DNA of 64,000 bases from an uncultured Candidatus Poseidoniales archaeon (GTDB lineage Archaea > Thermoplasmatota > Poseidoniia > Poseidoniales > Thalassarchaeaceae). Every line of letters begins with the position of its first letter. Position 1 is the first letter of the stretch. Shown in pieces: positions 18,871 through 56,668 of the stretch. Below the pieces are notes generated by a model, which saw only the letters and a program-made list of their open reading frames with translations, was not told where the DNA came from and did no database searches. The translations under genes and the position numbers were made by a program. The DNA lies in contig CAJJBW010000004.1 of assembly GCA_905182515.1 (NCBI GenBank), positions 33,131-97,130 on the forward strand, given 5' to 3'.

Positions 18871-18916
18871 TCTTCTTAAGACCCTCATATATCGCCCTAG
18901 ATTCGAGGTTAGTATA

Positions 18917-37851: not shown

Positions 37852-37870
37852 TTTTTTAGCACATTATATG
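37852..37870 (+). promoter_or_regulatory. T6 tract plus AGCACATTAT motif between purD and the giant aglB
   Basis: TTTTTTAGCACATTATATG starts immediately after the purD stop (37849-37851). See 32651-32670 for the near-identical copy. Confidence 0.35.
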
Positions 37871-37964
37871 AAGTTATCAGGGTGGCTACTCCACGAACCG
37901 TTAAAGCAACCCGTCAATTCGCCGCGATGTTGAGCCTTAAGGCTGCAACGAATGGTGATGAAAA

Positions 37965-40900
37965 ATGAATACAAAAGAAGAGGCGAAAGAGAGTAAATTT
38001 TCTACCAAGGATTTTACTCCTATTCCTGTAATAATGACTACTTTGTTAGTACTTTATTTTGGAGTTAGTTTCGCCGTTAATGGAGAAATAGGAAATGATG
38101 GATATGCAGAAATCTTGATTCTACCTATGGCTGCTGCAATAGCATCTGCCATAGGTCGAATAAGCCCATTCCTTCCTATGGAGCAAATGCCTAAATATCG
38201 CACTATGTCAATTTCATTAGGGATCGTATTGGTTGCATTTTTGTTAAATATAATTTCTCCTAGCAATTTTAATAATATTTTTATCGTAACATTTGTTTTA
38301 GTTGGGATATTATCAGTCATGGCATCACAATCTAAACACTTTGAAGAATCTAATTTACTTTTATCAATGGTCATTGGTTTCCATCTAGCAGTTTCCTTTG
38401 CATCAAATTTATCTATGGATGCAGGTTTGGATATTAACTCTCAGAGAACTTCAATCGGAATAGCATTCATATCATTTTGGATAGCATCTATATCTGTTGG
38501 ATTCACTCTTGCTATGTATCTCAGAGGGACATTAGATCATAAAGGCAACAACCCTTTCTTCTCTGTAATACCTGTTTTCACTAAAAATAAATCAGTTGTA
38601 TTATTCTCAAGCTTAATATCATTAGTATATATTATTCCATTATTACAATTTGAAAATAACAACTCACTTGGAATAGTTTGGGCCATATCTACGAGTCTAA
38701 TCGTTATATTTTATGCATTTTGCAGGTCTGAAAGATGGTTCGTATTAGGGGCTATAGTGGCCATAAATTGGTTTATTTATACTCTAGGGCATATTCAGGA
38801 AATTGGCAATACTTTTTATCCGGATGTATTTGAAGGTGAAGGCTTTTTAGGGGCCTTTTCATGGTTTTTCATTACTTTCTGGTTAAATGTTGCAGCAATT
38901 TCTTTGGCCTCAAAAGGTTACTTTGGAGATATCGCTCCAATGCGCACTCATGGTAAATTTAGGATATGGTGGAATGCAAATTTTTACAATATTTTAATAC
39001 CACTCTCATTCTTAGTTGCTCTAACTGTCAGGGTCGTTTGGAACGTCGTTCCTGCAATGAATGCATCAGGAACTGGATTATGGGATATGTCAGGTGGGTC
39101 AGATCCTTGGTACATGAAGCGTGTTATTGATTACATAGTAGTCAATAATAGCCATCTGATTTTTGATGCAGATAGAGCATATCCAATGGGTGCAATCAAT
39201 CCCCGGCCACCTCTTTTTACATGGTCACTAGCATTGGGTGGAATGGCATTATCTTGGGTTTTGGAATCTGATAATACTGGTGAAGTTGTTTGGTGGAGTT
39301 TATCTTCATTGCCTGCTATTTATGGTGCATTAATAATATTCCCAGTTTCAGGTATAGCAAATAGGATATATGGTAAGAAGGCTGCAATATTGTCAGCGTG
39401 GTTGATTGCATTTATGCCTGGGCATATTAGTCGTTCTACATTTGGTATGGTAGATCACGATTCATTTGCAATATTACTACTTTCTACGGCATTCTATTTT
39501 TGGATTACTTCTCTATCATATATGGAGCAAGAAAGAATTTTTAAGAAAACTTCAGCAAATCCACTATACATTATCGCTGGAATTAGAGAATCCTGGGTTA
39601 GAAATCCGAAGGTTATGGCTAATGCCACACTTTCAGGTATAGCATTTGCAATTATGGCACTTGGTTGGAAAGGTTTCGTTTATGGGCCAGCAATAATATT
39701 CCTAGTATTTTCTTTACAATTATTGCTTAACCTGTTTAGGTCTAGAGACAGTATTCAGTTAACTTCTGCTAATTTACAAATGTTATTCACAACCCTAATA
39801 ATTGCTCTTCCATTTTACGCGTGGCCAGGTTTAAATTTAGTATTGAATCCTAATGGTTTAGAACCATTATTCTTTATTATTGGATTCTCATTGATACTTG
39901 GCTGGGTAACTTGTTCATTTAGAGATAAGCCATGGCTATTAGTTTTGGGTGTCGGAACTACACTTGTTTCATTAATATTGCTGATGTTATTCTTACTACA
40001 AGAAGCTGACATATATGCAGGATGGGATATCCTCTTTACTGGTGGTTTTTACTTTGATAAGAATAAAATATTCGGTACAATAGGTGAGGCCCAGGCACCA
40101 AGTAGAGGCGTTTTATTCGCCTCTTATGGTCCAATTGTTGCATTAATAGCATTATCTTATGCTTTTGTTTTCCTTTGGAGGGGCGCAAGAAGCAACAAAG
40201 GGGCATTCACTCTTTTGGGTTCATGGGGCATAATTTCTACATACATGGCCTGGTCTGCAGGTAGATTTATCATCAATGCAACTCCAATAATGGCTATTTT
40301 AGGAGGCATTGGAATCGCTATGCTTTGGAAATCTGCCAATTTCTCAAACTTTTCAAAGGAATGGAGAAATTCTGGTATAGGAACGCCAAGAGCTAGATTT
40401 AGGTCACTTTGGCCTGCATCAAAGAGCCAAGTTGGCGTGCCAATACTGGCTATTGTATTCATGCTGGTATTTTCTCAACATGTTACTTACGGAATTGATT
40501 CTGGAATACCTAGGGGGTCTGAATATGCTTCAGATGTTGATCAGGCCATCTATGATTTAACTCCTGATATTCTAAGAACAAAATTACTTGGAGAATTCTC
40601 TATACTTGATAGTTCTGATTATAACTATGGCTCTCCTACTGAATTTGAATACATCGGTACATTCGGACCTAGTTTCAACAGTTATGGATGGAATGATGCA
40701 TTCTCATGGCTTGAAAGTCAAGATTCTGATGTTGGATTCAGTGAAAGGCCAGCCTTTGTTTCCTGGTGGGATTATGGTTTTAGTGCTTTAACACAAGGGC
40801 AACACCCTACTGTTGCAGACAACTTCCAGTCAGGGATACCTCATAGTGGAGGGATGTTATTATCTCAAGGCCAGGATGACACAATTGCCCTTTTCATAAC

Positions 40901-43900
40901 AACTCTTACTCAAGGTGATATGAAGGCTAACAATGGTATAGTAAGTGATTTGTTATTATCTACATTATCATATAACATGAATGAAGCACAAATTAAAGAA
41001 TACTCTAGTATTATGTCTAATACTAAATCTTCCTTTGTAATAGGGCATGCTATGCAAGTCAGAGCAATTCAAAATGGAGTAGAATTACTAAGTGGCTACC
41101 AACTAAACTCTGAGGGAATACCAAGCCAAGATCTCGAATGGGTTGTAGTTTCTGAAAACGGCGATAGAACTTCGTTAGGTGATAATAAATCTGCAGCTTT
41201 ATCATTATTTAATCAAACTAGGGGGTCAGCATCTGTATCTTCTTCATTATCAAGTTGGGATGAAGGCCTCTCTCCCTCTTACTATGATATCGGCAATTAT
41301 AGGTATACTACTGATCTTATCGAGGACTTCGATTCAGCATCTACTTCGATTCATAAGACCAATTCTAAATTAGCAATCTCTAGGGCGTTTTTAGTATCCG
41401 CATTTGATATTGATGCATTAGTTGACATATATCATGATATATCTACATCAATAACTTACGAAGTCCAAGATTATGACGGCCCACTTGGAAGTACAGTTGA
41501 AAGGAACAATGAAATCAGATATTTTGCTGTTGATAATAAATTATATCCTCTAGGAGGGTCATATTATGAAGATTATTCATATCATAGAGGGCAAACAACA
41601 GGAATATTCCATGCTCCTACTGGACTTTCTGGTTTAGATATGAATAACTATATTTCAACGCTTTACCTAACACAAAGAGGAGATGGGCCAATAGTGCCAA
41701 GATCTTCTCAGGAATTCAATGATGCATATTTATCTGATTTGGAACTTCAACAAAGTGGTGCAATATCGGACTCCACTCAAGTAATTAGGTACACTGATAT
41801 AGATTATCAACATAAAGCTAGTTTCTTTGATACAATGGTGGCAAGAACTTATGTTGGATATGGTACATCTACATTAGGACTCCAAGGAGATGCCGAATCT
41901 CCTTCAGTATGGTTTAATCCTCAGAGCTCAGGTCTAATAGGTGCTCCAGGGACATATCTACAAAATGCTTGGGCTTTACCAGGGGCAATGATGAATCATA
42001 TGGTAATATCAAATTGGTACGATAGTGATTATGATGATGATGGAATAGATAATATTGCAGATCTCACTAAGTGTGGAGATTTAATCGAAAGCAACATTAC
42101 TTCTAATTTATCTATAGGTGATACATCCATTTCATTAGTTGATGCATCATTAATGCCAATCAGTGGAAGTGCGAATCTAAATGACGATATTGAGGTACAG
42201 TGGACTGGTAAGAGTGATAATTCTTTAACTGGAGTAAGCAAGATTACTAAAGATATCAAAGAAGGATCTCAATTATCATATAATCCTGATAGAGGTTGTG
42301 GTAGTATATATGATTCTAATAGATTTGTAAAGATTCTGAAATATTACAGTGGAGCAACTTTAGAAGGAACGGTTTCTCTTGATGGAGATGGAATAGTTCC
42401 AAATGCCCGAATTTTAGTTGAAAGAGATGCTTTTAGCGGAGATGAAACTGCGGATTCTGATGGTAATGTTGTCGACAGAGATGGCAGAACATATTGGATC
42501 CCTATAGGATATTCTGATGCAGATGAGAATGGTAAGTTCTCTTTGACAGTCCCTGCTGGTAAGATTCGAATCTCAGCTTATATTGGAGATACGGACTTAG
42601 ATTCTGCTAGAGCATCAATCATGACGTCAGACGTAGGCCAAACAATGTTTGAACTAGTTATCGAAGAGAATACCCAAAGAATGACAAATCCCATAACTGG
42701 GATACTTGGAAATGTCGCTGGTGCTACATGGCTTTCAGAAACTATAGTTAATGTTTCAGGATCCGAAGGTCATAGTAACGGCGAAGAAAAAATACAAGTT
42801 TCTATTGATGTGTCATCATCTTCATCCTCAGGAGTGTTGTCTTGGGCAGGTAGTGGCGATTTCAATGGTCAACCAATAGAGAATGCCCAAATAGTATTAT
42901 CTCCTTCTTCTGAATTAATAGCTTTAGATCCTTATTTAATTTCAACTTCTAATGGCACAGTTACTGGAGATGACCTCCAATTCCAAGGATTAGGGGAGGT
43001 ATTATTCACAGGTGCTGGTAATGTTGTCTCACCTAATAATATATTATCAGTGTACGATTTTACTGGCCAACATACTCAAGACATCTATAATAACCATAGC
43101 ATAATTGGTGATGGGTTATTTACTGGAAAAGGACTTTTGTCCAATGGTGTGATAAAAGATGATATTGAAATAATCGTGTGCCAAGATGATACGTTGCCCG
43201 AAGGTGTTGATATTTGTATCAACAATGAAGAAAATTACTTACTAAATGGAACTTATAACGCATCAGGAAAATTCACATCTGTTGGAAAATCAACATTTAC
43301 AAAAACCCTTATCCGGTCAACTTTGATCGGTTCAGGGACCTTCACCGTAGACACTACTGAAGCACTAGATTCATATGGGATTGTAAATGGTACAGGGACA
43401 TTCTCGGGAACTGGTATATTTAGTGGCGCTATGGTCCAGCCAGGGACATTCCGCGTCGTTAATGCAATTCCAGGTACTTACGATGTTTCTGTAATATTTG
43501 GGGATGGGACACAAGTCAATTTAACTAACCAATTTACAATACCATTGCGAGATTCACCATCCATGTCTATGCCTGTTATTGTATTTGGAGGAACTATTTC
43601 TGGTCATTTGATAGATTCTAATGAGAATGTAGTAAATTCCTCAGTATCTTTGATCAAGGGCATCAATTCAATTGATCAAGAAATGCCAGTTGAAGATTGT
43701 TCAATAATAAAATTCGCTCCTTGTTTCATTTATCCCGACGATACAGGTAAAATTTCATTCGGACCAATAACGCCCGGCTCATATCTCGCAGAGATAGATT
43801 CTGATGGTGATGGCATTCCTGAAGTTTCTATGGCTTACGACTTCAATGTCGATACACCTTTCGATGCAATTTTCCCTTCTCCTCTGCCAGAAACATCTGA

Positions 43901-46900
43901 TATACGATTTACTTTAATTGATGAAGGAATTATGATGGAAGATCTGAATATTTCTTTCTATTATGAAAATCAAATAAACAATATAGTAAACGCATTATAT
44001 GATGCAGATTCTAAAGAATACAATGTCGAATTAACCCAGGGGACATGGATTTTAAGTCATAGTTTAGATGAGAATAAGCAAATCTGGAAAAGTATCGTTA
44101 TTGGTTCTGAGGATTTAGAAATGGAAATTGAATTTGAAGTTAGTAAATTAGTAAGTGGTTTGGCTCACATATCTTCCACAGATTTAATTACTGATAATTC
44201 AATAATTACTCCATTACCTAACCATCCGGTCTCATTCTATTGGGGCGAAGAACTAACTACAATTGTATATACTAATTTAGATGGAGAATTTGAAGTAACT
44301 TTGCCAGTTAACTCAATAGTGGATGCATCATTACAATATTCACTTGATTTACCATATTCATCAAACTATAGATTTACAGTAAATGATGTACTAGATGACA
44401 ATCAAACATTTAATTTAACAGCAGAAAAATCATTAATTGTAAACGGCAAATTAAGTCTTGACATAATAGGGAACTATTATACCAATTCTCTTGATGATTG
44501 GAGCACCGTACAGATAATTGCCACGCCATCTCCATTGGATGATTCCAAACCATCTTGGAGGGCTACTGTTGATGAAACTGGTAATTTCCAAATGTTCCTA
44601 AAAGAAGGAGATTGGATTTTCTCCAAACAAACCTCACTAAATAATCCAAGTAACATTTTGGAAGAGGTCCTAATTATTAATGAGTCTGTAAAAGATATAG
44701 ATTTATTACTTTATTCAGATATTAGTCCAGTGATTATCGACTTATTCCTCGATCACAGTAGGGATGGAAACATTTCAAATGGTACTATGGTACAATATCC
44801 ATTCGCTATTAAATCTTTAAATCCCTTGATTCCAACATATGAGGTAGCTATAGATGGTGATGAGTGGGTGTCGTATGGTAGAGCGGAAGTATATATGGCA
44901 CCAGGGACATATTCGATAGTAATTGATAGGGCAAATCCATCTGATGGAGACCTATTTGATACTTTATACACCTCTGATGACTCATTTGATATTGGACTAA
45001 TTGTAAATGAATTTTCAACTTCTATAGCATTTGAACCAGAATGGCTTACGAATTTAACGTTGACTAATCAAAGTGGGGGGATACTATCCAACCAATTAGT
45101 CAGATTCAAAGATATTGATTCAGGATGGTTATTATCATTCATGTCAAACTCTAATGGTTCTATTTCAACGTATATCCCAGAAGGGGAATGGCTGGTAACA
45201 ATCGATTCATTAGAAACTAATACAGATGTATTCGAAAGTATCAGAAGATTAATTTCTGTTACAAATATCTCAGCAGGACAGAGTATTGATTTAATTACTA
45301 ATGAAGTAGCAAAAACTACAATAATTCTTACTAATGGGGAAATTCCTTTATCAAATGTTCAATTAAAATTAATAAGTGAAACATTAGGTACTACTAATTC
45401 ACCATATTCTGATGAACTTGGAATGATTGATTTAAAAATTGAACCAGGAATGTGGGATGTAGAATTAAATTATACTGATAATAATGGAGTTATGTGGATT
45501 ATTGAGACTACTCCTTTATTGGAAGAAGGATTGTCAGCTGGTGAAAACTCTGGAATTTTGTTGAATGTAAGTAAATTTGTTCAACTCAAAGGAACAGTAT
45601 TTTGGGATTTAAATAATAATAATTTACCAAACTTTGGAGAAGGCGTTTTAAATGCCTCAGTAAACCTAACTTCTGATTTACAATCTGAACTTGTAGTTAC
45701 TGACGAATTAGGTGCTTGGTCTATTTATCTACCTCACGAGAGTATTTGGTCAATTTCAACCCATATTGATGGATTTAGTGATGCCGAATCAACAGTATCT
45801 TTGTCAAATGATTCTCATGTGAAAAATATTCAAATAACTGCAGGAGTAGTTGAAATTTCTGGTTTTATTTCATATATTGATGAAAATCAATTCCAAGAGA
45901 TAGCAGATGAAATCACAATCGTTTTACTCCCAGCGTCTGGGATAATAAGGGACAGAGTAACTCCAAATAAAATACTAAATGATCAAATGATTTGGGATGG
46001 GGAATGGAGCGTTATGGTCGAACCGGGTGATTGGATTGCATGGATTACAGCTGAATCTACTAATAATGTACCTTATTTGGTTTCAATCGACTATATGGAT
46101 GTAGGGATAAATGGTTTAGTTACAAATTCTGAAATGTCAATAGGCGGAAAACTTATTTTAGATACCCAATGGCTAGATTATGATGGTAATGATAAATCAT
46201 TATTAGATTTGGTTTCTCATAATGTGATCATTAATTTAAGATCTTTGCAAATAAGTTGGGACGAGCAATTAAATGAAAATGGTACTTTAGAATTAATTTT
46301 ACCAATAGGTCAAGTTGACGCATCAAGTTCTTTCAATTATAGTCAAGAGGGCATGGTCATGGATTATTCTGGAGGAAAAGGTGCAACGATCAGATCATCT
46401 CAGGATACTCCAGTAACAACTTTGGAAATCACTGTAATTAAGAATCAAGACATATTAATTACGAATGCTGCATTAGGTAATGCCGACTTAGTATTATCTG
46501 ATATGCCATGCACTCCTGAGTGTACTTATGACGCAGTAGACTTTAATCTTAATCTTAATTATATTGGCCACCAGTCATATGATAACTATACTGTTAACGG
46601 TATCGTTCCAGGGGCAGATGGCGTAAATTGGACAGTTGAATTCAAAGACGATTCCGGAAATTGGAACTCTTCGACATCAGTAGAAATGGGATTGGAAAAT
46701 ACTCTTTCAATTAATGACTTTGAGGTCAGAATAACTCCTGCAAAGGTCAACACAGCTCACCACTTAAATAATGGCCATCAGATTAGAATTATCTTTACAA
46801 CCTTGGATGGATATGTAAATGAGCATGTAATAATAGTTAATGTGCCTCAATCACATGCATTTTCCTCAGATGGATTCTCTAAGGACATATATGGGATTGT

Positions 46901-47675: not shown

Positions 47676-47679
47676 GTGA

Positions 47680-47702
47680 AATACAAATATTATTATTGTA
47701 TT
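47680..47702 (+). terminator. Weak AT-only hairpin just after the aglB stop
   Basis: AATACAA-atattatta-TTGTATT forms a 7-bp stem with a 9-nt loop. It is flanked by CTAAGT direct repeats at 47672-47677 and 47704-47709. Confidence 0.2.
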
Positions 47703-47725
47703 CCTAAGTAAGGCAGCATGAAGGT

Positions 47726-48967
47726 ATGAATTTGCAACCTCTTGGTAATCTGGAACTTTTGCCCGAACCCGATGAACCCAACATTCTAACTGCGATTGAT
47801 CAAGATGCCCAAGGTTATGCTGGTAATGTATATGGAGTAAGTGATGAAGAAGCACGTAAGTTAAGAAGAATAATACTGCCGATTAAAAGATTAATTTGGC
47901 CTTGGGGGGCGTTAATGTTTACGGTATTTGTGACATTCCTAATTATTAGTTGGCCAGTCATAAGCCCCTTACTATCACAAGCACTGCCTGATTCTGAATG
48001 GGCATTTGAAGAGACAGGTATTAGAGAAATGCATAATTTAGGATATTTCGGAACAGGAATTAGAGTATGCATGGTTGATACCGGTATCGACATATCTCAT
48101 CCAGATCTAGAACATTTGGAATTGGCAGGCTTTAGGGATTTTTATGCTGAAGATCACAGCAACGTACGTGATATAGGTAGTAACCTCCATGGAACATTGA
48201 TGTCAGGAATACTTGCTGCAAATGGAAGTTTAGTTGGTGCTGCTCCAGAAATTTCTCTTTCAGTTGCAATATCACTTGGCCCATCGGGAACATCTGGTCA
48301 AGAAGGAATGGTATCCCAAGCAATAAGGTGGTGCCGAATATCTCAAAATGCTGACATAATAAGTTTGAGTCTCGGTGCAAATCCGGGTGAAAGAATAGAC
48401 GACCGTTCAGAAACTGCTATAGCAGTAAAAGAGGCTATTGAGGATGGTATTTTTGTAATTGCTGCAGCAGGAAATACCGGATTAGACAGTTCAATTAATG
48501 ATGTTTCAATCCCGGCTAATGTAGAAGGCGTAATTTCAGTTGCAGCAACTAATAAGAAAGGTTCAATTTGGCCAGATAGTGCTATTGCATCTAATATCGA
48601 CCCATATAGTGAATCCGAAAGAGTGTTTCCTAATCAAAAACCTGAAATTTCAGCACCAGGAGTAAGGTTATTGTCAACATATTCAACATCTCCAAATAAT
48701 CCTCTATACGCATATTCTTCTGGGACAAGTGACTCAACAGTATTAGTCACTGGAGCCCTAGCTTTACTTTTACAACAATATGGGGATTTAATCGCCGGAG
48801 GAGATGGTGTGATTAGTTATGACGAATTGTTACGAGTTAAATCATCACTTGCATTGTCGACAGGAACTGATATTGAAGGTTCAGGGCACGATTTACAAAA
48901 AGGATATGGTAAATTAAATGTGATTGCGTGGGGTGAATTAATCGCAATTGAATTTAATCCTAATTAA
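47726..48967 (+). CDS. Membrane-anchored subtilisin-like serine protease (peptidase S8)
   Basis: TM helix: WPWGALMFTVFVTFLIISWPVI. Asp: VCMVDTGIDISHPDL. His: NLHGTLMSGILAA. Oxyanion Asn region: AAAGNTG. Ser: YSSGTSDSTVLVTGALALL. Confidence 0.8.
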   Translation: MNLQPLGNLELLPEPDEPNILTAIDQDAQGYAGNVYGVSDEEARKLRRIILPIKRLIWPWGALMFTVFVTFLIISWPVISPLLSQALPDSEWAFEETGIREMHNLGYFGTGIRVCMVDTGIDISHPDLEHLELAGFRDFYAEDHSNVRDIGSNLHGTLMSGILAANGSLVGAAPEISLSVAISLGPSGTSGQEGMVSQAIRWCRISQNADIISLSLGANPGERIDDRSETAIAVKEAIEDGIFVIAAAGNTGLDSSINDVSIPANVEGVISVAATNKKGSIWPDSAIASNIDPYSESERVFPNQKPEISAPGVRLLSTYSTSPNNPLYAYSSGTSDSTVLVTGALALLLQQYGDLIAGGDGVISYDELLRVKSSLALSTGTDIEGSGHDLQKGYGKLNVIAWGELIAIEFNPN

Positions 48968-49025
48968 TATTTTCAATACGCTTTTAGACCCTATTGTTAA
49001 ATTAACTTATGCTGCCCCATGATAT

Positions 49026-52000
49026 ATGAGGGACAAGGATAAAGCGCGTAGTACATTTTTAGTATTCTTAATGTTTTCAAGTATTTTAGTTTCATTAATA
49101 GGGCCAGCATCTATTGTTTCAGCAAACAATGAAACTGAATCTGGGACTATAACTGGAACTGAAATATGGTCAGGAGTTCATCAATTAACTGGAGATGTAA
49201 CTATTGCAACAGGTGCCCAATTAATAATAAATCCTGGTACTATTATTAACATACCTAACGGGACTCATATTGATGTAAGAGGGAGTATATGTGCAGGAGA
49301 ATATTTTTGTGGAGCCAGCTCTAATGCGAACCCAAGTCAAAAAATTAAATTCCAATGGAGTGACCCATTGGTATCCAACGCGACTGGGAGTTGTGCAGGA
49401 TTAACTACTAATAATCAAGAAATTTCTGTAACCGATCCATCATGTTATGAAGGAATCTTGATTCGTAGTTCTATAGATCTTTCCTTAACTGGCATGAGGC
49501 ATGTGGTGATTGAGGGGGCTTATGGAATACCTCATTTTATTAATTCAGTAAATGAATGGAGATATGGTGCACTAGTGATAGACGGCGCAAGCCCCACTCT
49601 TAGAAATCTAGATTTCTCTGATATAAATACATCTAGTATTGTTACTACAAATCTAGCTCAACCAATTTTAATAGATGGCTCATTCACAGTTGGTAATGAC
49701 GAAGAAAGTAACGTTGGCGGCTCTGCTCTCCAAATTTATAATTCGGGAACATCAATTGCACCATTCACATTAAATAGTCCATTTTTTAAACAAGGAACAA
49801 ATAAGGGATGTCAAAGTAATGATGGCGGCAGATCTGCTTTATGGGCCCAAGAATCTTTCATCAATATCAATAATGCGGATATAGGAACTGGTGATTTTGG
49901 GGTTACTTTTAGAGATACGGCTGGCAAATTTACTAATTCAACAATTGATGTAAATTGTGTCGGCATATCTGTACAGGGTAAAAGAACAGTGAACTCTGTA
50001 TCATTTGGCTTAGATATACTAAATAATCAAGTAACAACCGCTGAAGGAACTGGTATTTTTACTTCCAATAGTGCTTTAGTTGATATTAGATATAATGCAG
50101 TGCAAGGGGCATCAGCAGGTTCGGGAATAGCAGTTTCATCTAGCGTGGCTAAAATTCATGAAAATATTATAGGTCCGATTACTGGTTATAATGGATTATG
50201 GTTATTTGGTTCCTTTGAAGTGGAAGCAGAGAATAATACAATTTCAGATACTAATAGGGAGCCAATTATTGCAGGGGCATATTCTAATTCTGATACATCA
50301 ATATCAAATTTATATCTTGTAAATAATGATATTTCAACAGATGGAACTGGCACTTGTTCTAGTAACAAATGGTGGGGAGGAAGTTTCTTCTGCCCAGCAA
50401 TAATGATATTTAGATCAGGTGCAACAATACATGATAATGATATTCAAGCAGGATCTGCAAATGCCATTATGGCGATAGGGGCATTATTAGATGTACAAAG
50501 AAATATTTTTGACGGTGCACTTACAGGGGCCCTGATAAAGAATTATAATGATGGTTTTGCAGGTAGTGAGCAATATGGGTCCTTAGCATTCTTTTCTCAA
50601 AATATTTGGTCTAATGTAGGCATGACCTACAATATTACCAAGAGTTCTGTTACTGTGCAATCAGAAACCATTCCTGCCGCTGCTACTGGGGAATATCCGG
50701 TCAGACTTTCATGGCCAGATCAAGAAGCATGGCATGCCAATAATTTCCAAACTAAAATCATGGTTCCTCCTGTAAAAAGCTGCCCAGCATGTGATGAGGT
50801 TATTCCACGTAATTTTCCTTTGGCATTAAATATGGACAATAACTCTACAGTATTTACATTTTCAAATTTGACAAATTTAGATACTAATAACATATACATT
50901 GAAACTCAACCAACTCATTATGCCGTACAAGTTAGTAGGGCAGAATTAGTCAGATTCCAGGCTTTAATAAATGGAGAAAAAGTTTCTGATGCCTTAGTGT
51001 TAATTGAGGATGCCTTAGGTAATGACCTATATTCTATTCTTACCGTATCAGATGGATATACTCCTTGGTTTTCTCTCCCTTCGAATTTCCATTTGGATTT
51101 TAGGGGGCTAGGTGGAGGAGATAATCCTGATGGATTTGCTGATGATGAATATGAAGATTCTTGTTCAGATGGAATTGATAATGATGGAGATCTAACTGTT
51201 GATAGTAATGACGTTGACTGTAATTATTCAGAAGGAACGAGAGAGTTATCGAGGTTCTTTTACACCATATATCGCTTTGGATTCGGTTATGCTACAGGAG
51301 AATTCACACTTGAAGAATCTACATATCAAGATTCAATAAACCTTGTCAACTTGGCGCCATCTGTACAAATAACTCAATCAAATGGTCATTCATATAGGAA
51401 AATTGTTAATATTACTGGTAATGCACATGATGGGCAATTAGCAAATAGCTATGCTTCAAATGAATTCGCACAATGGAGTCAACAAGGATATGTTCATCAT
51501 ATAGAGGTCAAAGACCCCTTTACTAGTGAATGGGAAGATGCTGGTTTTGCAGTAGATGATAGTGATGCCAATGAAGGTACGGTGACCCGCTTCAATCATC
51601 CGTTTAGTGAATGGTATTATGAAATTGATATGTCCAATAGAGAAGAAGGAGACTACATTTTTGCATTCCGTTCATTTGATGGGACAGATTACAGTGAAGT
51701 AGTTTCTAAGGAATTTAAACTTAATACAGAAGCTCCAATTATATCCGTATCAACACCAACATCACTATCTACTCATTCTGATAACTTTATTCATTTTGAG
51801 GGTGATTCTTCAGACCCGTACGGATGCCCATTAGATTGCAATAAAGACTTAAAATCAATATATATGCTAATTGAAGGTCCAAGTTTTCAAGTTACAACTC
51901 CTATCGAGGTTAATCATAATGGTTCATGGAGTTGGGATTGGGATTTCAGTGGGCAACCACGAGAATCCGCCGCATACACTTTTACAATATGGGCATCTGA

Positions 52001-53273
52001 CTCAGACTTCTGCAAGGGGATTATAGATGTCTGTTCACCCATCGTACTTTCATTAACAGTAGATAACTCTAACCTTGCTCCAATTATAAATATTAATGAA
52101 CCAACCGATGGACTAAGGCTATCTGTTTCTCAAAATACTCAAGTAAGTGGCGTTGTGAGGGACTTCGATGGAAGTGTATCTAGAGTAGATATAGAAATCA
52201 AAGATGTTCAAAATGAGTATATAATAATTCATTCTCTTTCCATATCTGAATTTAGCGACAATGGTGAATGGAATTATTCTTGGGATTCACGGCAATTAAA
52301 ACATGATTCTACTTATCTTTTAAGATTTAGATCTTATGATGGATATGATTTCAGCAGTTGGACTGAGTTAGAGATAATCGCAGACAATCCTCTCGATGCT
52401 GACAACAATCAACCAACTTTCACTTCCGAAGGATGGGTTGAAAATAATATATTATATTGTGATATAAATTCTAAATCTTCTAGTAGATGTACAACTATTG
52501 AACTCAATCTTTTGGAATTTTTCGAGGACCAAGATTATGATATACAATATATATCAGTTTACAATGGTCAAAATAGTTATGATGATAATTATGGAATAGT
52601 AATAAAAGTTAGTAGCAATGGAATAGCTACTTACAATCCTACAGATATGAATTTTTACGATAATGATATTTCTACATGGTCATTATTGGATGTAATATTT
52701 GTTGCAACTGACTCTTTCGGCTCGAAAATTAATTCTGATCCTATATCCTTTACAGTGGAACCAATTGAGTTTAAGATTAATGATTTAGATTATGACACAA
52801 TAGAGGAAGAAGGAGTAATGTTATATTCAGGAACTGGCTTACCTGGTAAAACAATTACTGTTATTGTTGGTGGTAACCAAATTAACAGTACTATAGTATC
52901 TGAAAATTCAACATGGATACTGGGAATACCCGCATCAAGATTACCTGATAATGTGGCATCTCCTAAATTTTCAATGGGCGGCCAAGACCCAATTCAAGTT
53001 GCTGACATCTTCGTAGGGCCATTCGAAGAGCAGGGATATCCTACGGGTTTAATTATCGTTGTAATTATAATTATTATAGGGATCGTTACTCTTGCATATT
53101 TCTTTGTAGAGTTAGAAGTAGATGAACAAGAAAAAGAATCTTTAGAAGGGGATTCAGATTTTGGAAGTACTAATGACGAATCAATTTTACAAAAACATGA
53201 TGATCACCCTGGTTGGCTTTGGAACCCAATCGATAAAGAGTGGATTGAAGATACTGAGTATGTTTCAAAATAA
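49026..53273 (+). CDS. Large (1415 aa) secreted/anchored protein with a right-handed parallel beta-helix region (NosD/pectate-lyase-like), Ig/cadherin-like modules and a C-terminal TM helix
   Basis: Signal peptide: STFLVFLMFSSILVSLIGPASIVSA. Repeated N/G/S/T-rich about 22-aa turns (e.g. NNQVTTAEGTGIFTSNSALVDIRYNAVQGASAGSGIAVSSS). One acidic Cys-bracketed motif CSDGIDNDGDLTVDSNDVDC (51162-51221). C-terminal helix: GLIIVVIIIIIGIVTLAYFFV plus an acidic tail. Confidence 0.65.
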   Translation: MRDKDKARSTFLVFLMFSSILVSLIGPASIVSANNETESGTITGTEIWSGVHQLTGDVTIATGAQLIINPGTIINIPNGTHIDVRGSICAGEYFCGASSNANPSQKIKFQWSDPLVSNATGSCAGLTTNNQEISVTDPSCYEGILIRSSIDLSLTGMRHVVIEGAYGIPHFINSVNEWRYGALVIDGASPTLRNLDFSDINTSSIVTTNLAQPILIDGSFTVGNDEESNVGGSALQIYNSGTSIAPFTLNSPFFKQGTNKGCQSNDGGRSALWAQESFININNADIGTGDFGVTFRDTAGKFTNSTIDVNCVGISVQGKRTVNSVSFGLDILNNQVTTAEGTGIFTSNSALVDIRYNAVQGASAGSGIAVSSSVAKIHENIIGPITGYNGLWLFGSFEVEAENNTISDTNREPIIAGAYSNSDTSISNLYLVNNDISTDGTGTCSSNKWWGGSFFCPAIMIFRSGATIHDNDIQAGSANAIMAIGALLDVQRNIFDGALTGALIKNYNDGFAGSEQYGSLAFFSQNIWSNVGMTYNITKSSVTVQSETIPAAATGEYPVRLSWPDQEAWHANNFQTKIMVPPVKSCPACDEVIPRNFPLALNMDNNSTVFTFSNLTNLDTNNIYIETQPTHYAVQVSRAELVRFQALINGEKVSDALVLIEDALGNDLYSILTVSDGYTPWFSLPSNFHLDFRGLGGGDNPDGFADDEYEDSCSDGIDNDGDLTVDSNDVDCNYSEGTRELSRFFYTIYRFGFGYATGEFTLEESTYQDSINLVNLAPSVQITQSNGHSYRKIVNITGNAHDGQLANSYASNEFAQWSQQGYVHHIEVKDPFTSEWEDAGFAVDDSDANEGTVTRFNHPFSEWYYEIDMSNREEGDYIFAFRSFDGTDYSEVVSKEFKLNTEAPIISVSTPTSLSTHSDNFIHFEGDSSDPYGCPLDCNKDLKSIYMLIEGPSFQVTTPIEVNHNGSWSWDWDFSGQPRESAAYTFTIWASDSDFCKGIIDVCSPIVLSLTVDNSNLAPIININEPTDGLRLSVSQNTQVSGVVRDFDGSVSRVDIEIKDVQNEYIIIHSLSISEFSDNGEWNYSWDSRQLKHDSTYLLRFRSYDGYDFSSWTELEIIADNPLDADNNQPTFTSEGWVENNILYCDINSKSSSRCTTIELNLLEFFEDQDYDIQYISVYNGQNSYDDNYGIVIKVSSNGIATYNPTDMNFYDNDISTWSLLDVIFVATDSFGSKINSDPISFTVEPIEFKINDLDYDTIEEEGVMLYSGTGLPGKTITVIVGGNQINSTIVSENSTWILGIPASRLPDNVASPKFSMGGQDPIQVADIFVGPFEEQGYPTGLIIVVIIIIIGIVTLAYFFVELEVDEQEKESLEGDSDFGSTNDESILQKHDDHPGWLWNPIDKEWIEDTEYVSK

Positions 53274-53324
53274 CTAATTGTATTGTTATTTATCACTAAC
53301 GTTCTTCAATGACTTGTTAAGTGG

Positions 53325-55862
53325 ATGTATATTATGGTTAAAGTTCCTATGACGCGACCCGGCGTTCAAGAAAGAATTTTTCTTCATCTTAGGGATTTTG
53401 TAGATCATTCGGAAAAGGTCGAGGTCCCTTTCGCTTTATCTCAGATGGGTATAGCCAATGCGGTGGCCATCGCTCGTTCAAATGTTCCAAGAGCAATTTC
53501 GGGAATGAAAGAAAGTGGGCAGTTAATAGAGCGTCAGGCTCATGTAACTGGAGTTTCAAGAAAGAGAAAAGCCTACTTTCTAACTACAGAAGGGGCGATG
53601 GTGGCTGATGAAGTCTGGGCTAAAGTTTCGAAACAAAAAGTCAAACTTTTGTTACCAGATGGCAGGTCCGAACATATTTCCTTGTCTGATGCAATTGATA
53701 TGTCGGATTTACCATTAAGGCATGTGGATATTCTAAGATATATGGATGATAACGGCGTTGTAGATTTATCATCTCTTTCTCCTGAATTAATTGAAAGAGA
53801 TCTTTCAAAACATATCGAAAAACAACTTGTTTCATATCTAAATGATATGCCAAGAGCTAGACGATTTTTTGGTCGTGAAAATGAATTGGAGAACATGGTT
53901 GCATTGTTAGAAAACCGATCTAATTCCATATTAGTTCCAGGTATTGCAGGTATCGGTAAAACAGCATTAGCTGCAAAATTACTTGAAAGTTTTACTCATA
54001 GGAGAAATTTACTTTACCACAGGTGTCAAGATTGGGAAGGCTCCAGGGCATTCTTAGAAGCAATTGCCGAATGGCTCTCTGCAATTGGTAACAACGATCT
54101 TTCAGATTATATTAATTCAACTCCAGTACCTCAATCTTCAATTGCCGTCAATATGATTTGTCAAGGCCTTGAAGATTCTCCTGCATTAATTGTAATAGAT
54201 GACTTACACAAAGTAGGAGACGAAACTCTAATCTCTTTATTGAGGGGCCTAACACTAAACATAACAAACTTAACTGAAGTTGGATTAGTAATGTTTTCCC
54301 GTTCTTTTAGGATGGTTGTTCCTGAGTCTGATTCAAGTGGTAAAATAGTGACGCTGGTAATTCCATTGGAAGGATTAGATGCAAACTCAAGTAAACAGAT
54401 ATTAACTGCAATCCCGGACCTTGAAGGTCAACAATTTTCTCATATTTTTTCATTATCTCGTGGACATCCTCTAATATTGGAATTAATAAACCGTGGAAGT
54501 GTTGGTGAAAAATTCCATTCTACTTTAGAGGCTTTTGTAGATCAAGAAATATTTAGCCGGCTATCAGGTCCAGAAAAAAGATTACTAGGCGCAATAGCAG
54601 TTTTCAGAGAGCCTGTGATGTTGGAAGCTATTAATTCAATTGAGAGTGAGACGGATATGTTAGATAACCTCGTCGAAAAAGGATTGGCAAGACAATCTGA
54701 TTCTGAAACATATGATGTACATGATCTCGTGCGGGAATTCCTCGTAAGATCGATGGATGAAACATTACGTTTTGAATTACATTCCAATGCCGTCAATTGG
54801 TATAGGAATAAACGTAGTGGAGCCGCCGATACAATAGAATATATTCATCATCTCCATCTTTCAGGGAACAATGATGACTTGTCTAAAATATTGTTATCCG
54901 AAGGGCATGACTTAGTAACTGCAGGCCATACAGAATTATATTCAATATTAAAATCTTTAGAGTCTGATGACTTTGATAAAAATAGTTGGGGGCTAATAAG
55001 GGAATTGAGGGGCGATATATTGTCCGTCCAAGGCAGATGGGATGAGGCTGAGATAGAATACGATGCAGCAATGAAAAGTATAGGCAAAAATAAGATGATG
55101 ACGGAATTATCTAGATTACTCTCAGCTAGGGCAGATATTGCCGTAAAGAGAGGTGCAATGGATGACGCACTTGAATTACATAGGAAAGCATTAGAAATCC
55201 AAATCTCGATTAGAGATGCGGTCGGTGCCGCCAAATCTTACAATAATATGGGCTATATTTTCCGAAGAAGAAAAGATACTAGGCATGCAATGGAAGTTTA
55301 TGCAAATGTCGAGGAATTATTGAAATCTGAACAAAACTCTGATCTATGCGATGCTAGAATACGATTATCCTCTTCCTTCTTGGAAATGGGGGAATTAGAT
55401 AAATCAAGGGAGCATGCTTTAATTGCTTACGACGAAACAAAAGATATCGGCCAAGAATTTTTACATGCAAGATCACGTGCTGTTCTTGGCAGATATTATG
55501 CTAAAATTTCTGATAATGATCTTGCTTTACATCATTATTCTGGTGCATTAGAAGAACTATCAAAACAAAATAACCCTAAAAGTGTTGTTGAAGTTTCAAT
55601 ATTATTGGGACAAGTGCTGATGGATGCTGGAAGGAATGATGAAGCAGCCAATCATTATCTTGGTGGTTTGGCAGTAGCTGAGGCCAATGATTTTAGGATG
55701 ATGCAGGGAGAATTATTGGCTAGACTTGGTGCAGTAGAATCAGATCGCTCCCAAAGGATGAATTATTTACAGAGTTCACTCTCTGTATTTAGGGAATTAG
55801 GTGCAGTTGACAGGATGAAAGATGTACAAAATTCAGTTCATCGAGCTATTATGGGGCATTAA
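53325..55862 (+). CDS. Signal-transduction ATPase: N-terminal winged-helix DNA-binding domain, NB-ARC/STAND-type NTPase, C-terminal TPR repeats
   Basis: wHTH: LSQMGIANAVAIARSNVPRAISGMKESGQLIERQ. Walker A: VPGIAGIGKTALAAK. Walker B: ALIVIDDLHKV. GxP motif: SRGHPLILEL. TPR-like units: AAKSYNNMGYIFRRRKDTRHAMEVY, ARSRAVLGRYYAKISDNDLALHHY. Confidence 0.7.
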   Translation: MYIMVKVPMTRPGVQERIFLHLRDFVDHSEKVEVPFALSQMGIANAVAIARSNVPRAISGMKESGQLIERQAHVTGVSRKRKAYFLTTEGAMVADEVWAKVSKQKVKLLLPDGRSEHISLSDAIDMSDLPLRHVDILRYMDDNGVVDLSSLSPELIERDLSKHIEKQLVSYLNDMPRARRFFGRENELENMVALLENRSNSILVPGIAGIGKTALAAKLLESFTHRRNLLYHRCQDWEGSRAFLEAIAEWLSAIGNNDLSDYINSTPVPQSSIAVNMICQGLEDSPALIVIDDLHKVGDETLISLLRGLTLNITNLTEVGLVMFSRSFRMVVPESDSSGKIVTLVIPLEGLDANSSKQILTAIPDLEGQQFSHIFSLSRGHPLILELINRGSVGEKFHSTLEAFVDQEIFSRLSGPEKRLLGAIAVFREPVMLEAINSIESETDMLDNLVEKGLARQSDSETYDVHDLVREFLVRSMDETLRFELHSNAVNWYRNKRSGAADTIEYIHHLHLSGNNDDLSKILLSEGHDLVTAGHTELYSILKSLESDDFDKNSWGLIRELRGDILSVQGRWDEAEIEYDAAMKSIGKNKMMTELSRLLSARADIAVKRGAMDDALELHRKALEIQISIRDAVGAAKSYNNMGYIFRRRKDTRHAMEVYANVEELLKSEQNSDLCDARIRLSSSFLEMGELDKSREHALIAYDETKDIGQEFLHARSRAVLGRYYAKISDNDLALHHYSGALEELSKQNNPKSVVEVSILLGQVLMDAGRNDEAANHYLGGLAVAEANDFRMMQGELLARLGAVESDRSQRMNYLQSSLSVFRELGAVDRMKDVQNSVHRAIMGH

Positions 55863-55864
55863 GT

Positions 55865-56668
55865 TTAATTCCTTATTTTTTTAATTTCTTCCGCTCCTAA
55901 AAAATGTGTAAATTCAGGCCCAATTTGTTTCGATATTGCTATATTTCCACAAAATTTTTCTTCAATGTGATACAGGACTTCACTTTCTGCTATATGAGGG
56001 GCATTGTTTTTCTCTGAAAGATGGCACAAAACTAGACTTTTTAACTTTGAATGAACAACTTCGGATAACAGCTCTCCCGTTTGATAATTTGAAAGGTGCC
56101 CTCCCCTCCCTGCAATTCTTCTCTTCAATGATTCAGGATAAGAACTATTCATTAATTTCTTTTGGTCGTAATTAGCCTCAATAGATATATGTTTACAACC
56201 TGCTAAATGTTTCTTCAATTCTAGTGTCGATTGTCCTAAATCTGTTATAAATGCGGCCTTTTCATTTTTTCCACTGTTGGTTATTATTGCTACATTATCT
56301 GCATTATCATGAGGGATAGGTACTGCTATAAAACTTAAATCAACTCCACATTCTACTCTGTCTAGGTTATTAAATGTACGGCATATTTCCATAGGTTCCC
56401 AGCCCATTTTTATTGATGTCTCAATATTACTATATAGAACTGAATCCCATTTAATTGAAGCCCTTTTAGCCGAATTAGAATGATCGCCATGATTATGAGT
56501 TACAATGATAGAATCAATTTCATCACCTTTCATTCCGATTCTAGATAATCTTTTTTCAGTTTGTTTCAATGAAAAGCCACAATCAATTAGAACATTACTC
56601 TCTTCTGTTCTTAGTAATGTTGCATTCCCTTTACTTCCGGAACCCAAATGTGTAATTTCTAAACTCAT
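55865..56668 (-). CDS. Metallo-beta-lactamase-fold hydrolase
   Basis: LGSGSKGNATLL...LIDCG and the HxHxDH motif VTHNHGDHS, with later His/Asp ligands (ITDLG, CHLS). Convergent with the STAND gene, with a 2-nt gap between the stops. Confidence 0.75.
   Translation of the reverse strand: MSLEITHLGSGSKGNATLLRTEESNVLIDCGFSLKQTEKRLSRIGMKGDEIDSIIVTHNHGDHSNSAKRASIKWDSVLYSNIETSIKMGWEPMEICRTFNNLDRVECGVDLSFIAVPIPHDNADNVAIITNSGKNEKAAFITDLGQSTLELKKHLAGCKHISIEANYDQKKLMNSSYPESLKRRIAGRGGHLSNYQTGELLSEVVHSKLKSLVLCHLSEKNNAPHIAESEVLYHIEEKFCGNIAISKQIGPEFTHFLGAEEIKKIRN

What the first reader, a model, noticed from the sequence alone, without database searches (positions are those of the whole stretch)
37965..55862. 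Same-strand block: giant AglB, membrane-anchored subtilase, 1415-aa beta-helix protein, wHTH-STAND-TPR regulator
Four consecutive plus-strand genes are separated by only 50-58 nt, with boundaries at 47675/47726, 48967/49026 and 53273/53325.
- A glycosyltransferase giant.
- An S8 protease with an N-terminal TM anchor. Asp, His and Ser motifs are all present, although the Ser motif reads GTSDS rather than GTSMA.
- A signal-peptide beta-helix protein with a C-terminal anchor.
- A cytoplasmic DNA-binding STAND ATPase with TPR sensor repeats.

Inference: this looks like a self-contained module for making, processing and regulating a glycosylated surface structure. Possible roles are an adhesion or polymer-degrading apparatus. 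The block sits between the housekeeping gene purD and an MBL hydrolase gene.
Basis: inference. Interest (0 to 1): 0.6.

Follow-up and report, generated by a model that had tools for sequence, protein, structure and literature searches.

The report
Conserved envelope gene string, giant AglB
Four neighbouring genes of a Marine Group II ocean archaeon (a giant protein-glycosylating enzyme, a membrane protease, a large beta-helix surface protein and a regulator) are real and kept side by side across the whole order, but they read as at least two transcription units inside a longer fixed gene order, not as a proven self-contained machine.

Summary
All four ORFs, their coordinates, the 50/58/51-nt gaps and the domain calls are confirmed. 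The organism is a Poseidoniales (Marine Group II) archaeon of the family Thalassarchaeaceae. The order AglB > S8 > beta-helix protein (BH) > STAND, on one strand with short gaps, holds in every relative examined (40 genomes, 3 families).

That synteny has little discriminating power:
- purD, CarS, the MBL gene and a 1906-aa ORF are equally collinear.
- Genome-wide, 53% of adjacent orthologue pairs stay adjacent between families.
- 22% of all four-gene windows are fully collinear.

Metatranscriptome contigs cross the AglB>S8 gap in 4 runs and the S8>BH gap in 3 runs. None crosses BH>STAND in 6 runs. AglB depth is about 10-fold that of purD and similar to glutamate dehydrogenase. BH and STAND each have their own family-conserved upstream element.

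S8 keeps its catalytic residues in 65/65 orthologues. BH is a beta-helix plus about six Ig-like domains, a TM helix and an invariant Trp-rich cytoplasmic tail. The sister order also has a giant AglB but lacks the three partner genes.

Verdict: this is a conserved, order-specific envelope gene neighbourhood. A joint function is inferred, not shown. Earlier agents reached similar conclusions on the same block in other genomes.

The parts
37852..37964 (+). purD-AglB intergenic region (113 nt). A T6 run follows the purD stop directly, then a TATA-like CATTATAT, then GGTGA 7 nt before the AglB ATG.
   Evidence: Sequence read. RNA depth rises from 0-2 over purD to 10-27 over AglB in runs X1 and X4. 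An X1 contig starts at 37959, and an X4 contig runs 37826-39945.
37965..47675 (+). Giant AglB/STT3 oligosaccharyltransferase, 3236 aa. Residues 1-345 carry about 10 extra TM helices. Residues 346 to about 1366 are the STT3 core plus globular domain (D380, VDHD 496, TIGE 705, WWDYG 934). A variable linker follows, then about 1750 aa of extension, a TM helix at 3208-3226 and a tail ending GAPF.
   Evidence: Pfam STT3 60.7 bits. It is the only STT3 in the genome. The core matches A. fulgidus AglB-L 5gmy/3waj at E 1e-10. Orthologues of about 3200 aa occur across the order. RNA depth is similar to glutamate dehydrogenase.
47676..47725 (+). AglB-S8 gap (50 nt), with the inverted repeat AATACAA-N9-TTGTATT (47680-47702) over an AT-rich TATA-like stretch. 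No motif is conserved across genera.
   Evidence: Metatranscriptome contigs span the gap in X1 (47635-48112), X9 (47647-47834), X10 (47469-47835) and X3 (47619-47854). An X4 contig starts at 47712.
47726..48967 (+). Membrane-anchored S8 subtilase, 413 aa. It has a conserved cytoplasmic N-tail (1-55), a TM helix (56-85) and an extracellular catalytic domain. No propeptide domain was detected.
   Evidence: Peptidase_S8 133.9 bits. D118, H155, S335 and N250 are invariant in 65/65 orthologues, and GTSDS is fixed. It matches subtilisin BPN' structures at E 8e-24.
48989..49002 (+). Conserved upstream element CCCTATTGTTAAAT (consensus CCCTATGGTTAAAT), 37 nt before the BH ATG. It is a candidate BRE/TATA promoter for BH.
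   Evidence: It matches with at most 2 mismatches in 43/71 loci, against 0/67 coding controls. It occurs once in the 1.26-Mb genome. It is conserved in MGIIb but not in the other two families.
49026..53273 (+). BH, a 1415-aa type I surface protein. In order: signal peptide, right-handed beta-helix (about 35-560), beta-sandwich, acidic double-disulfide Ca-type linker (about 700-735), about six Ig-like domains, TM helix (1343-1361), and a cytoplasmic tail with an invariant G1396-W1397-x-W1399...W1406 hairpin.
   Evidence: AF2 models have pLDDT 81 and 78. Foldseek gives fold-level hits only. There are no PDB sequence hits. It is single-copy in 106/106 sampled Poseidoniales genomes and absent from 45 sister-order genomes. 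216 residues are invariant.
53296..53308 (+). Conserved upstream element CTAACGTTCTTCA (consensus CTAACATTATTGA), about 29-38 nt before the STAND start. It is a candidate promoter or operator for the STAND gene.
   Evidence: It matches with at most 2 mismatches in 39/84 loci, against 0/82 coding controls. It has 2 matches in the genome. No RNA contig crosses 53211-53347 in X1, X4, X5 or X7, and the coarser 52936-53599 bin is empty in X2 and X3.
53325..55862 (+). Cytoplasmic wHTH-NTPase-TPR (STAND-type) protein, 845 aa as called and 842 aa from Met-4 at 53334. Walker A is GIAGIGKT, Walker B is LIVIDDLH, and TPRs run from 546 to 845.
   Evidence: AAA_16 and TPR_12 score above cut-off. No TM segment is predicted. 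It is the best-conserved of the four genes: about 50% identity across the order, with the wHTH region at 62-66%. Profile hits to MarR/SlyA are weak. All database homologues carry only generic names.

Best explanation
This is a vertically inherited, Poseidoniales-specific cell-envelope gene neighbourhood, not a single operon or a self-contained machine. It lies inside a longer collinear segment: HD, a 563-aa ORF, CarS, purD, AglB, S8, BH, STAND, MBL, a 1906-aa ORF.

Shown:
- AglB is the genome's only oligosaccharyltransferase. Its catalytic motifs are intact and it is strongly transcribed.
- Transcripts run on from AglB into S8, and from the end of S8 into BH.
- S8 is a membrane-tethered extracellular subtilase whose catalytic residues are invariant.
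- BH is a membrane-anchored protein with a beta-helix, an Ig-like domain array and an invariant Trp-rich cytoplasmic tail.
- The STAND gene has its own conserved upstream element, and no RNA contig links it to BH.

Inferred:
- AglB glycosylates envelope proteins in general, possibly including its own stalk and BH.
- S8, co-transcribed with AglB and held at the membrane surface, matures or trims envelope proteins.
- BH is a glycan-binding or receptor-like surface protein. It is not the main wall protein, because its RNA depth is modest.
- The STAND protein is an NTP-dependent transcription switch whose regulon is unknown and may or may not include its neighbours.
For: - Gene order, strand and short gaps are invariant in 40/40 relatives and in more than 60 fetched loci.
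- BH occurs in 106/106 sampled Poseidoniales genomes and in 0/45 sister-order genomes.
- RNA contigs bridge AglB>S8 in X1, X9, X10 and X3, and S8>BH in X1, X3 and X5. None bridges BH>STAND in 6 runs.
- AglB word depth is 17-27, against 0-2 for purD, CarS and XPD and 25-47 for GDH. An independent paper lists the oligosaccharyltransferase among genes enriched when an MGIIb genus is active (PMC9723583).
- Distinct upstream elements for BH and STAND are conserved across MGIIb. The BH element occurs once in the genome, and the STAND element has one further match.
- The S8 triad is invariant in 65/65 orthologues.
- AglB motifs come, and the sole-STT3 result.
Against: - The RNA evidence comes from unstranded assembled contigs, so antisense transcripts cannot be excluded.
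- No contig covers the middle of S8 (48262-48409, 48606-48847) in any of 8 runs. A continuous AglB-S8-BH transcript is therefore not shown. The tool itself warns that dips in depth are not findings.
- Coverage over BH and STAND is low (2-13), so the missing BH>STAND bridge is only suggestive.
- The conserved upstream elements could be operators and not promoters.
- No substrate of S8, ligand of BH or target of STAND has been identified.
Confidence: 0.58

Rival explanations
1. Single four-gene operon that forms a self-contained module to make, process and regulate one glycosylated surface structure.
For: - Same strand, gaps of 50-58 nt here and about 20-100 nt in more than 60 loci.
- The gene order is invariant across the order.
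- Read-through contigs cross AglB>S8 and S8>BH.
Against: - No contig crosses BH>STAND in 6 runs.
- Depth differs 5-10 fold between AglB and BH or STAND.
- BH and STAND have their own conserved upstream elements.
- No glycosyltransferase or flippase gene lies in the block.
- BH is not sequon-enriched.
- The flanking housekeeping genes are equally syntenic, and background collinearity is 22% for four-gene windows.
- No operator word is shared among the gaps.
Confidence: 0.1
2. Frozen synteny only. The four genes are neighbours by descent in a slowly rearranging genome and have no functional coupling beyond three of them encoding envelope proteins.
For: - 53% of adjacent orthologue pairs (61% of same-strand pairs) remain adjacent between MGIIb and MGIIa, and 22% of four-gene windows are collinear.
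- purD and CarS, which are functionally unrelated, are kept next to AglB in all families.
- The sister order keeps a giant AglB without S8, BH or STAND beside it.
- STAND homologues in three outgroup lineages have unrelated neighbours.
Against: - Read-through transcription links AglB to S8 and S8 to BH.
- Gaps stay short in all families, although there is no obvious constraint to keep them so.
- In one outgroup genus the STAND homologue is again next to an S8 protease, but head-to-head.
- BH and the block as a whole appear together at the base of the order.
Confidence: 0.22
3. Integrated envelope assembly-and-sensing system.
- The doubly anchored AglB stalk is itself a major surface component.
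- The co-transcribed S8 protease releases or trims that stalk.
- BH acts as a receptor whose invariant Trp-rich cytoplasmic hairpin is read by the TPR domain of the STAND regulator.
For: - AglB RNA depth is as high as that of GDH.
- S8 is co-transcribed with AglB and tethered at the membrane surface.
- The BH tail GWxW...W is invariant from MGIIa to MGIIb and is predicted to be structured.
- The STAND TPR region is conserved and the protein is cytoplasmic.
- Earlier agents raised the same idea for other genomes, which is not independent evidence.
Against: - Nothing here tests an interaction or a cleavage.
- The Trp tail is also present on a second 1482-aa protein encoded elsewhere, with no STAND gene beside it.
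- The outgroup S8 protein next to the STAND homologue ends in a PGF-CTERM-like signal, not a Trp tail.
- The AglB extension is only marginally sequon-enriched (35 observed, 28 +/- 4.4 expected).
Confidence: 0.1

Closest known systems
Archaeal AglB, long type (Archaeoglobus fulgidus AglB-L, PDB 3WAJ/5GMY/7E9S; GT66/STT3 family)
   Same: The STT3 membrane core scores above the Pfam cut-off. The acidic loop residues are present, as are the TIXE-type motif (TIGE 705), WWDYG (934) and a C-terminal globular domain. It is the sole OST of the genome.
   Different: It is about 3.7 times longer. It has about 10 extra N-terminal TM helices, about 1750 aa of extra extracellular sequence and a second membrane anchor. 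It scores 157.6 against the 450-bit cut-off of the archaeosortase-A-associated subfamily TIGR04154, so it is not a member of that subfamily.
Archaeal agl gene clusters around aglB (for example Haloferax volcanii; from my own knowledge of the literature, and named in an earlier agent's note)
   Same: A conserved neighbourhood built around the OST gene, with envelope-related products.
   Different: No glycosyltransferase, flippase or sugar-modifying genes lie next to aglB here. The neighbours are a protease, a surface protein and a regulator. The upstream genes are purD and CDP-archaeol synthase.
Membrane-anchored subtilases such as mycosins (type VII secretion, TIGR03921) and propeptide-less intracellular subtilisins
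   Same: An S8 catalytic domain with an Asp/His/Ser triad and no detectable I9 propeptide. It is tethered to the membrane next to genes for exported proteins.
   Different: It scores 106 bits against the mycosin cut-off of 278.75, so it is not a mycosin. The anchor is N-terminal (type II), not C-terminal. The fixed GTSDS motif replaces GTSMA. There is no secretion-system context.
Right-handed beta-helix carbohydrate-active proteins and adhesins (AlgE4/AlgE6 epimerase A-modules, PL6 chondroitinase B and alginate lyases, phage tailspikes, pneumococcal PfbA)
   Same: The BH N-terminal domain has the same overall fold (Foldseek probability up to 1.0, E about 1e-4).
   Different: TM-scores are at most 0.43 and identity is 7-12%. 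No Pfam beta-helix, NosD or pectate-lyase model is matched. No catalytic residues could be assigned. The Ig-like array, TM helix and Trp-tail architecture is not that of these enzymes.
STAND/MalT-type signal-transducing NTPase regulators (MalT, AfsR, archaeal ATPase_2/AAA_16-TPR proteins)
   Same: A P-loop NTPase of the AAA_16 type followed by an arm and TPR sensor repeats, fused to a DNA-binding-type domain.
   Different: The candidate DNA-binding domain is an N-terminal MarR-like winged helix, not a C-terminal LuxR HTH or an N-terminal SARP domain. TPR_MalT scores 29.2 against a cut-off of 45. No ligand or target is known, and all homologues are unnamed.

Membership tests
AglB/STT3 oligosaccharyltransferase (GT66) | STT3 multi-pass membrane core recognised by the family model | tested here: met
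   PF02516 scores 60.7 bits against a cut-off of 24.5 over residues 357-782. PDB sequence hits to AglB-L reach E 1e-10.
AglB/STT3 oligosaccharyltransferase (GT66) | Catalytic and substrate-binding motifs: acidic residues of the first external loop, a second D-x-D type motif, a TIXE/SVSE-type motif and WWDYG | tested here: met
   D380 (SDPWY), VDHD 496-499, TIGE 705-708 and WWDYG 934-938. The DK/MI motif was not assigned.
Archaeosortase-A-associated AglB subfamily (TIGR04154) | Score above the curated subfamily cut-off | tested here: not met
   157.6 bits against a cut-off of 450.
Subtilase S8 | Asp-His-Ser triad and oxyanion Asn in the family order, with the family model above cut-off | tested here: met
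   PF00082 scores 133.9 bits. D118, H155, S335 and N250 are invariant in 65/65 orthologues.
Mycosin (TIGR03921) | Equivalog score above cut-off, and a type VII secretion context | tested here: not met
   106.2 bits against a cut-off of 278.75. No such context lies in the window.
STAND-type NTPase regulator | P-loop NTPase domain with Walker A and B, followed by repeat sensor domains | tested here: met
   AAA_16 scores 43.1 against 32.6, and TPR_12 57.1 against 30.1. GIAGIGKT and LIVIDDLH are seen in the translation and are highly conserved. The specific nSTAND, NB-ARC and MalT-TPR models all score below their cut-offs.
STAND-type NTPase regulator | DNA-binding winged helix-turn-helix | tested here: inconclusive
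   Pfam PadR scores 16.4 bits against a cut-off of 27. A profile of 21 N-termini against PDB gives SlyA/MarR, IclR and CRP hits at E 0.03-0.6, with a recognition-helix and wing alignment. No structure was predicted for this part.
Operon (single transcription unit of four genes) | Transcripts spanning every intergenic junction | tested here: not met
   AglB>S8 is spanned in 4 runs and S8>BH in 3 runs. BH>STAND is spanned in 0 of 6 runs. The contigs are unstranded and no contig covers mid-S8.
Operon (single transcription unit of four genes) | No internal promoters, and similar expression of the members | tested here: not met
   Conserved locus-specific upstream elements lie before BH and STAND. 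Word depth is 17-27 for AglB, 0.6-13 for BH and 2-8 for STAND.
Functionally coupled conserved gene cluster | Adjacency conserved beyond what background synteny gives, or recurring in distant lineages | tested here: inconclusive
   Adjacency is conserved in 40/40 relatives. However, 22% of four-gene windows are collinear genome-wide and the housekeeping flanks are equally conserved. A STAND-S8 pair recurs in one outgroup genus but not in three others.
Polysaccharide lyase / epimerase / NosD beta-helix families | Family model match or close structural match with catalytic residues | tested here: not met
   No Pfam or NCBIfam beta-helix family is matched. Foldseek gives E about 1e-4, TM at most 0.43 and 7-12% identity. 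Only the fold is shared.
Archaeal S-layer glycoprotein (for BH) | Very high expression, sequon-rich ectodomain, C-terminal anchor | tested here: not met
   The C-terminal TM anchor is present. However, RNA depth is modest (0.6-13, against 25-47 for GDH) and sequons number 16 against 19.3 +/- 3.9 expected. The Foldseek hit to the H. volcanii S-layer 7ptp is a generic Ig-array match.

The most novel reading that the evidence does not exclude
The block is the core of a still undescribed Marine Group II envelope system.
- The highly transcribed, doubly anchored AglB stalk is a structural surface component.
- It is matured by the co-transcribed membrane S8 protease.
- BH is an outside-in receptor whose invariant Trp-rich cytoplasmic hairpin is sensed by the TPR domain of the neighbouring wHTH-STAND switch.

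This would be a signalling route that uses no two-component system.
Probability: 0.1. Interest if true: 0.75.

Novelty: new variant of a known kind. Interest (0 to 1): 0.4.

Why it matters
Poseidoniales are among the most abundant planktonic archaea. They are uncultured, and their cell envelope is undescribed. This neighbourhood holds their only N-glycosylating enzyme, in a giant and strongly transcribed form. It also holds three order-specific or order-wide genes: a surface protease, a receptor-like beta-helix protein and a highly conserved regulator.

If the genes do work together, they give concrete handles on how these cells build and sense their surface. That bears on particle attachment, virus recognition and use of high-molecular-weight organic matter.

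The practical results here are negative or limiting:
- Synteny alone cannot show coupling in this order.
- The RNA data split the block into at least two units.

Several earlier agents of this scan reached similar verdicts on the same block in other genomes, so the finding is not new within the scan.

Tried and rejected
1. The sigma-70 promoter and hairpin-terminator scan does not apply to archaea. Its hits were at background level, so I ignored it.
2. BH against PDB by sequence gave no hit at E <= 1.
3. Pfam and NCBIfam on BH gave only sub-threshold Big_7, Ca_tandemer and acidic-disulfide repeat hits.
4. The sequon enrichment test found that BH and S8 are not enriched and the AglB extension only marginally so. 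This rejects BH as a specially glycan-rich AglB client.
5. BH as the S-layer protein is rejected on modest RNA depth.
6. A search for a shared operator in the four upstream gaps found no more shared 6-8-mers than in shuffles (p about 0.16-0.18).
7. The Trp tail as a BH-specific partner of STAND is weakened. The tail is also on a 1482-aa protein elsewhere, and it is absent from the outgroup's STAND-adjacent protease.
8. STAND-S8 as a widely conserved pair holds in one outgroup genus only.
9. Literature searches for Marine Group II with AglB, oligosaccharyltransferase or S-layer found no description of the block. They found only the transcription note in PMC9723583.
10. My first impression was that gaps are 200-390 nt in the other families. 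This was corrected: it arose because alignments did not reach the gene ends, and gaps computed from ORFs are mostly short.

Full report
**Observation.** The ORF list reproduces the finding exactly. The ORFs are 37965-47675 (3236 aa), 47726-48967 (413 aa), 49026-53273 (1415 aa) and 53325-55862 (845 aa). All are on the plus strand, separated by 50, 58 and 51 nt. Family scans confirm the labels:
- STT3 at residues 357-782 of the giant (60.7 bits, cut-off 24.5).
- Peptidase_S8 (133.9 bits).
- AAA_16 plus TPR_12 in the last protein.

The 1415-aa protein matches no family above threshold. The flanks are purD and CDP-archaeol synthase upstream. Downstream lie a convergent MBL-fold gene and then a 1906-aa ORF.

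**Organism.** The window belongs to a 1.26-Mb MAG that is 71% complete, and the giant is its only STT3 gene. Record titles of related loci place it in Poseidoniales (Marine Group II), family Thalassarchaeaceae (MGIIb).

**Synteny.** I searched 40 relatives spanning 3 families and 18 genera. All four genes are present in every one, and wherever the contig allows they lie adjacent on one strand in the same order. In more than 60 fetched loci the gaps are short, mostly 20-100 nt, and they are also short in the two other families. The 1415-aa protein (BH) is single-copy in 106 of 106 sampled Poseidoniales genomes and absent from 45 genomes of the sister order(s) of the class.

**Control on synteny.** The collinear segment is much longer than the four genes. 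An HD gene, a 563-aa ORF, CarS, purD, the four genes, MBL, the 1906-aa ORF and a 187-aa ORF keep the same order in the other two families and in a distant MGIIb genus. The one exception is a set of three extra opposite-strand genes between STAND and MBL: a pilin-like DUF7289 protein and two of unknown function. This genus lacks them.

I then fetched a closed genome of the other main family and compared it with the whole MAG:
- 53% of adjacent orthologue pairs remain strictly adjacent.
- For same-strand pairs the figure is 61%.
- 22% of all four-gene windows are fully collinear.

Conserved order is thus the rule in this lineage. It says little about functional coupling.

**Transcription.** Public metatranscriptomes hold this locus as assembled, unstranded contigs.
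- *Depth.* In two runs of one study, AglB has a word depth of 17-27. That is like glutamate dehydrogenase (25-47) and about ten times purD, CarS, the XPD helicase and the other giant ORF of the window. An independent paper lists the oligosaccharyltransferase among genes enriched when an MGIIb genus is active (PMC9723583).
- *AglB>S8.* Contigs cross this gap in four runs (X1, X9, X10, X3).
- *S8>BH.* Contigs cross this gap in three runs from three studies (X1, X3, X5).
- *BH>STAND.* No contig crosses this gap in six runs. Coverage there is low, so this is suggestive only.
- *Middle of S8.* It has no contig in any of eight runs. The tool warns that dips in depth are not findings, so I record this as unexplained.

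**Upstream elements.** Aligning the upstream regions across loci shows two things:
- CCCTATGGTTAAAT lies about 37 nt before the BH start.
- CTAACATTATTGA lies about 29 nt before the STAND start.

They match with at most two mismatches in 43/71 and 39/84 loci, against 0 in coding controls. The BH element occurs once in this genome, and the STAND element has one further match. Both are conserved within MGIIb but not in the other families. The region upstream of S8 has no motif conserved across genera. The four upstream gaps share no more words than shuffled sequence does. The most economical reading is two or more transcription units: AglB-S8 with run-on into BH, a promoter of BH's own, and a separate STAND unit.

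**The proteins.**
- *AglB.* It carries the expected motifs: D380, VDHD 496, TIGE 705 and WWDYG 934. It has about ten extra N-terminal TM helices, about 1750 aa of extra extracellular sequence and a final TM helix.
- *S8.* It has a conserved cytoplasmic N-tail, one TM helix and a catalytic domain with no detectable propeptide domain. Asp, His, Ser and the oxyanion Asn are invariant in 65 of 65 orthologues, and GTSDS is a fixed lineage signature. It is very probably active.
- *BH.* It folds with good confidence (pLDDT 81 and 78) into a right-handed beta-helix followed by about six Ig-like sandwiches, a TM helix and a small cytoplasmic hairpin carrying invariant Trp residues. Fold searches give only fold-level resemblance. 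For the helix these are epimerases, PL6 lyases, tailspikes and an adhesin, with TM at most 0.43. For the rest they are generic Ig arrays. Enzyme, lectin and adhesin roles cannot be told apart. BH is not enriched in sequons (16 observed, 19.3 +/- 3.9 expected) and its RNA depth is modest. It is neither an obviously special AglB client nor the main wall protein.
- *STAND.* It is the best conserved of the four, at about 50% identity across the order, and its N-terminal region is the most conserved part. Its winged helix is supported only by weak hits, which apart from two designed-protein artefacts all point to MarR/SlyA, IclR and CRP regulators. All homologues in the large protein collection carry only generic names.

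**Outgroups.** Genomes of the sister order also encode a giant AglB of about 2300-2380 aa. No S8, BH or STAND gene lies beside it. The giant enzyme therefore predates the block. In one outgroup genus the STAND homologue lies head-to-head with a secreted S8-CARDB-Big_7-PKD protease that ends in a PGF-CTERM-like signal. In three further outgroup lineages the homologue has unrelated neighbours. The Trp-rich tail of BH also occurs on a second 1482-aa protein encoded elsewhere in this genome.

**Verdict.** The block is a real, order-specific, vertically inherited envelope gene neighbourhood, with transcriptional linkage between AglB, S8 and probably BH. It is not shown to be one operon or a self-contained machine, and the regulator's link to its neighbours is unproven.

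Earlier agents of this scan examined the same block in other Poseidoniales genomes and reached similar conclusions. I read those notes only after forming my own view, so they are not independent support.

- the genome-wide synteny background;
- the RNA contig evidence at each junction;
- the two conserved upstream elements;
- the sister-order comparison;
- the outgroup neighbourhoods of the regulator.

Noticed in passing
window 48262-48847 (inside the S8 gene): No metatranscriptome contig covers 48262-48409 or 48606-48847 in any of eight runs (apart from one low-depth X4 contig, 48570-48723, with 7 mismatches). The first third of the same gene has the highest depth of the block (26-39 in X1 and X4). 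No T-run terminator is visible at 48100-48220. The tool warns that dips in depth are not findings.
   Followed up: partly
window 55557-56015: An X1 contig of depth 31 spans the convergent 3' ends of the STAND and MBL genes, whose stop codons are 2 nt apart. This is far deeper than either gene body. It may be overlapping 3' UTRs or a small RNA.
   Followed up: no
L094 13724-17507 (G025), and the equivalent in G026, G017 and G031: Other Poseidoniales genera carry three opposite-strand genes (a 361-aa DUF7289 pilin-like protein, a 743-aa ORF and a 157-aa ORF) between STAND and MBL. They are absent from this window, and the 743-aa protein has no match in this MAG.
   Followed up: partly
window 47643-47675 (AglB C-terminus): After its last TM helix and a basic stretch, AglB ends in ...RRPGAPF. 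A (G/S/N)APF-COOH ending recurs in most MGIIb orthologues seen in the upstream-of-S8 listing. It may be a conserved C-terminal signal.
   Followed up: no
G000 C5:11402-15850 (outside the window): A second surface protein of 1482 aa carries the same TM plus YPGWLWD...W..PDP cytoplasmic tail as BH.
   Followed up: partly
window 18851-27853: The 3000-aa transglutaminase-core giant is strongly enriched in N-x-S/T sequons (81 observed, 41 +/- 5.6 expected). This is far more than the AglB extension or BH.
   Followed up: no
G025:C1:1441257-1450519: In the closed Poseidoniaceae genome the AglB orthologue is split into two ORFs of about 1600 aa each. This is either a frameshift or an assembly error.
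   Followed up: no
L035, L056, L070, L073 and L081, upstream of BH: Several MGIIb genera have a perfect palindrome CGAGCCTACGGCTCG just upstream of the conserved BH element. It is absent from this window. It may be an operator or the end of the S8 transcript.
   Followed up: no
window 47680-47702: The inverted repeat AATACAA-N9-TTGTATT lies directly after the AglB stop codon. It is shared only with the two closest relatives.
   Followed up: partly
L108 10910-14128 (G056): The outgroup protease next to the STAND homologue is a 1072-aa S8-CARDB-Big_7-PKD protein. It ends in LPGPG plus a TM helix plus RRRS, which is a PGF-CTERM-like archaeosortase signal.
   Followed up: partly
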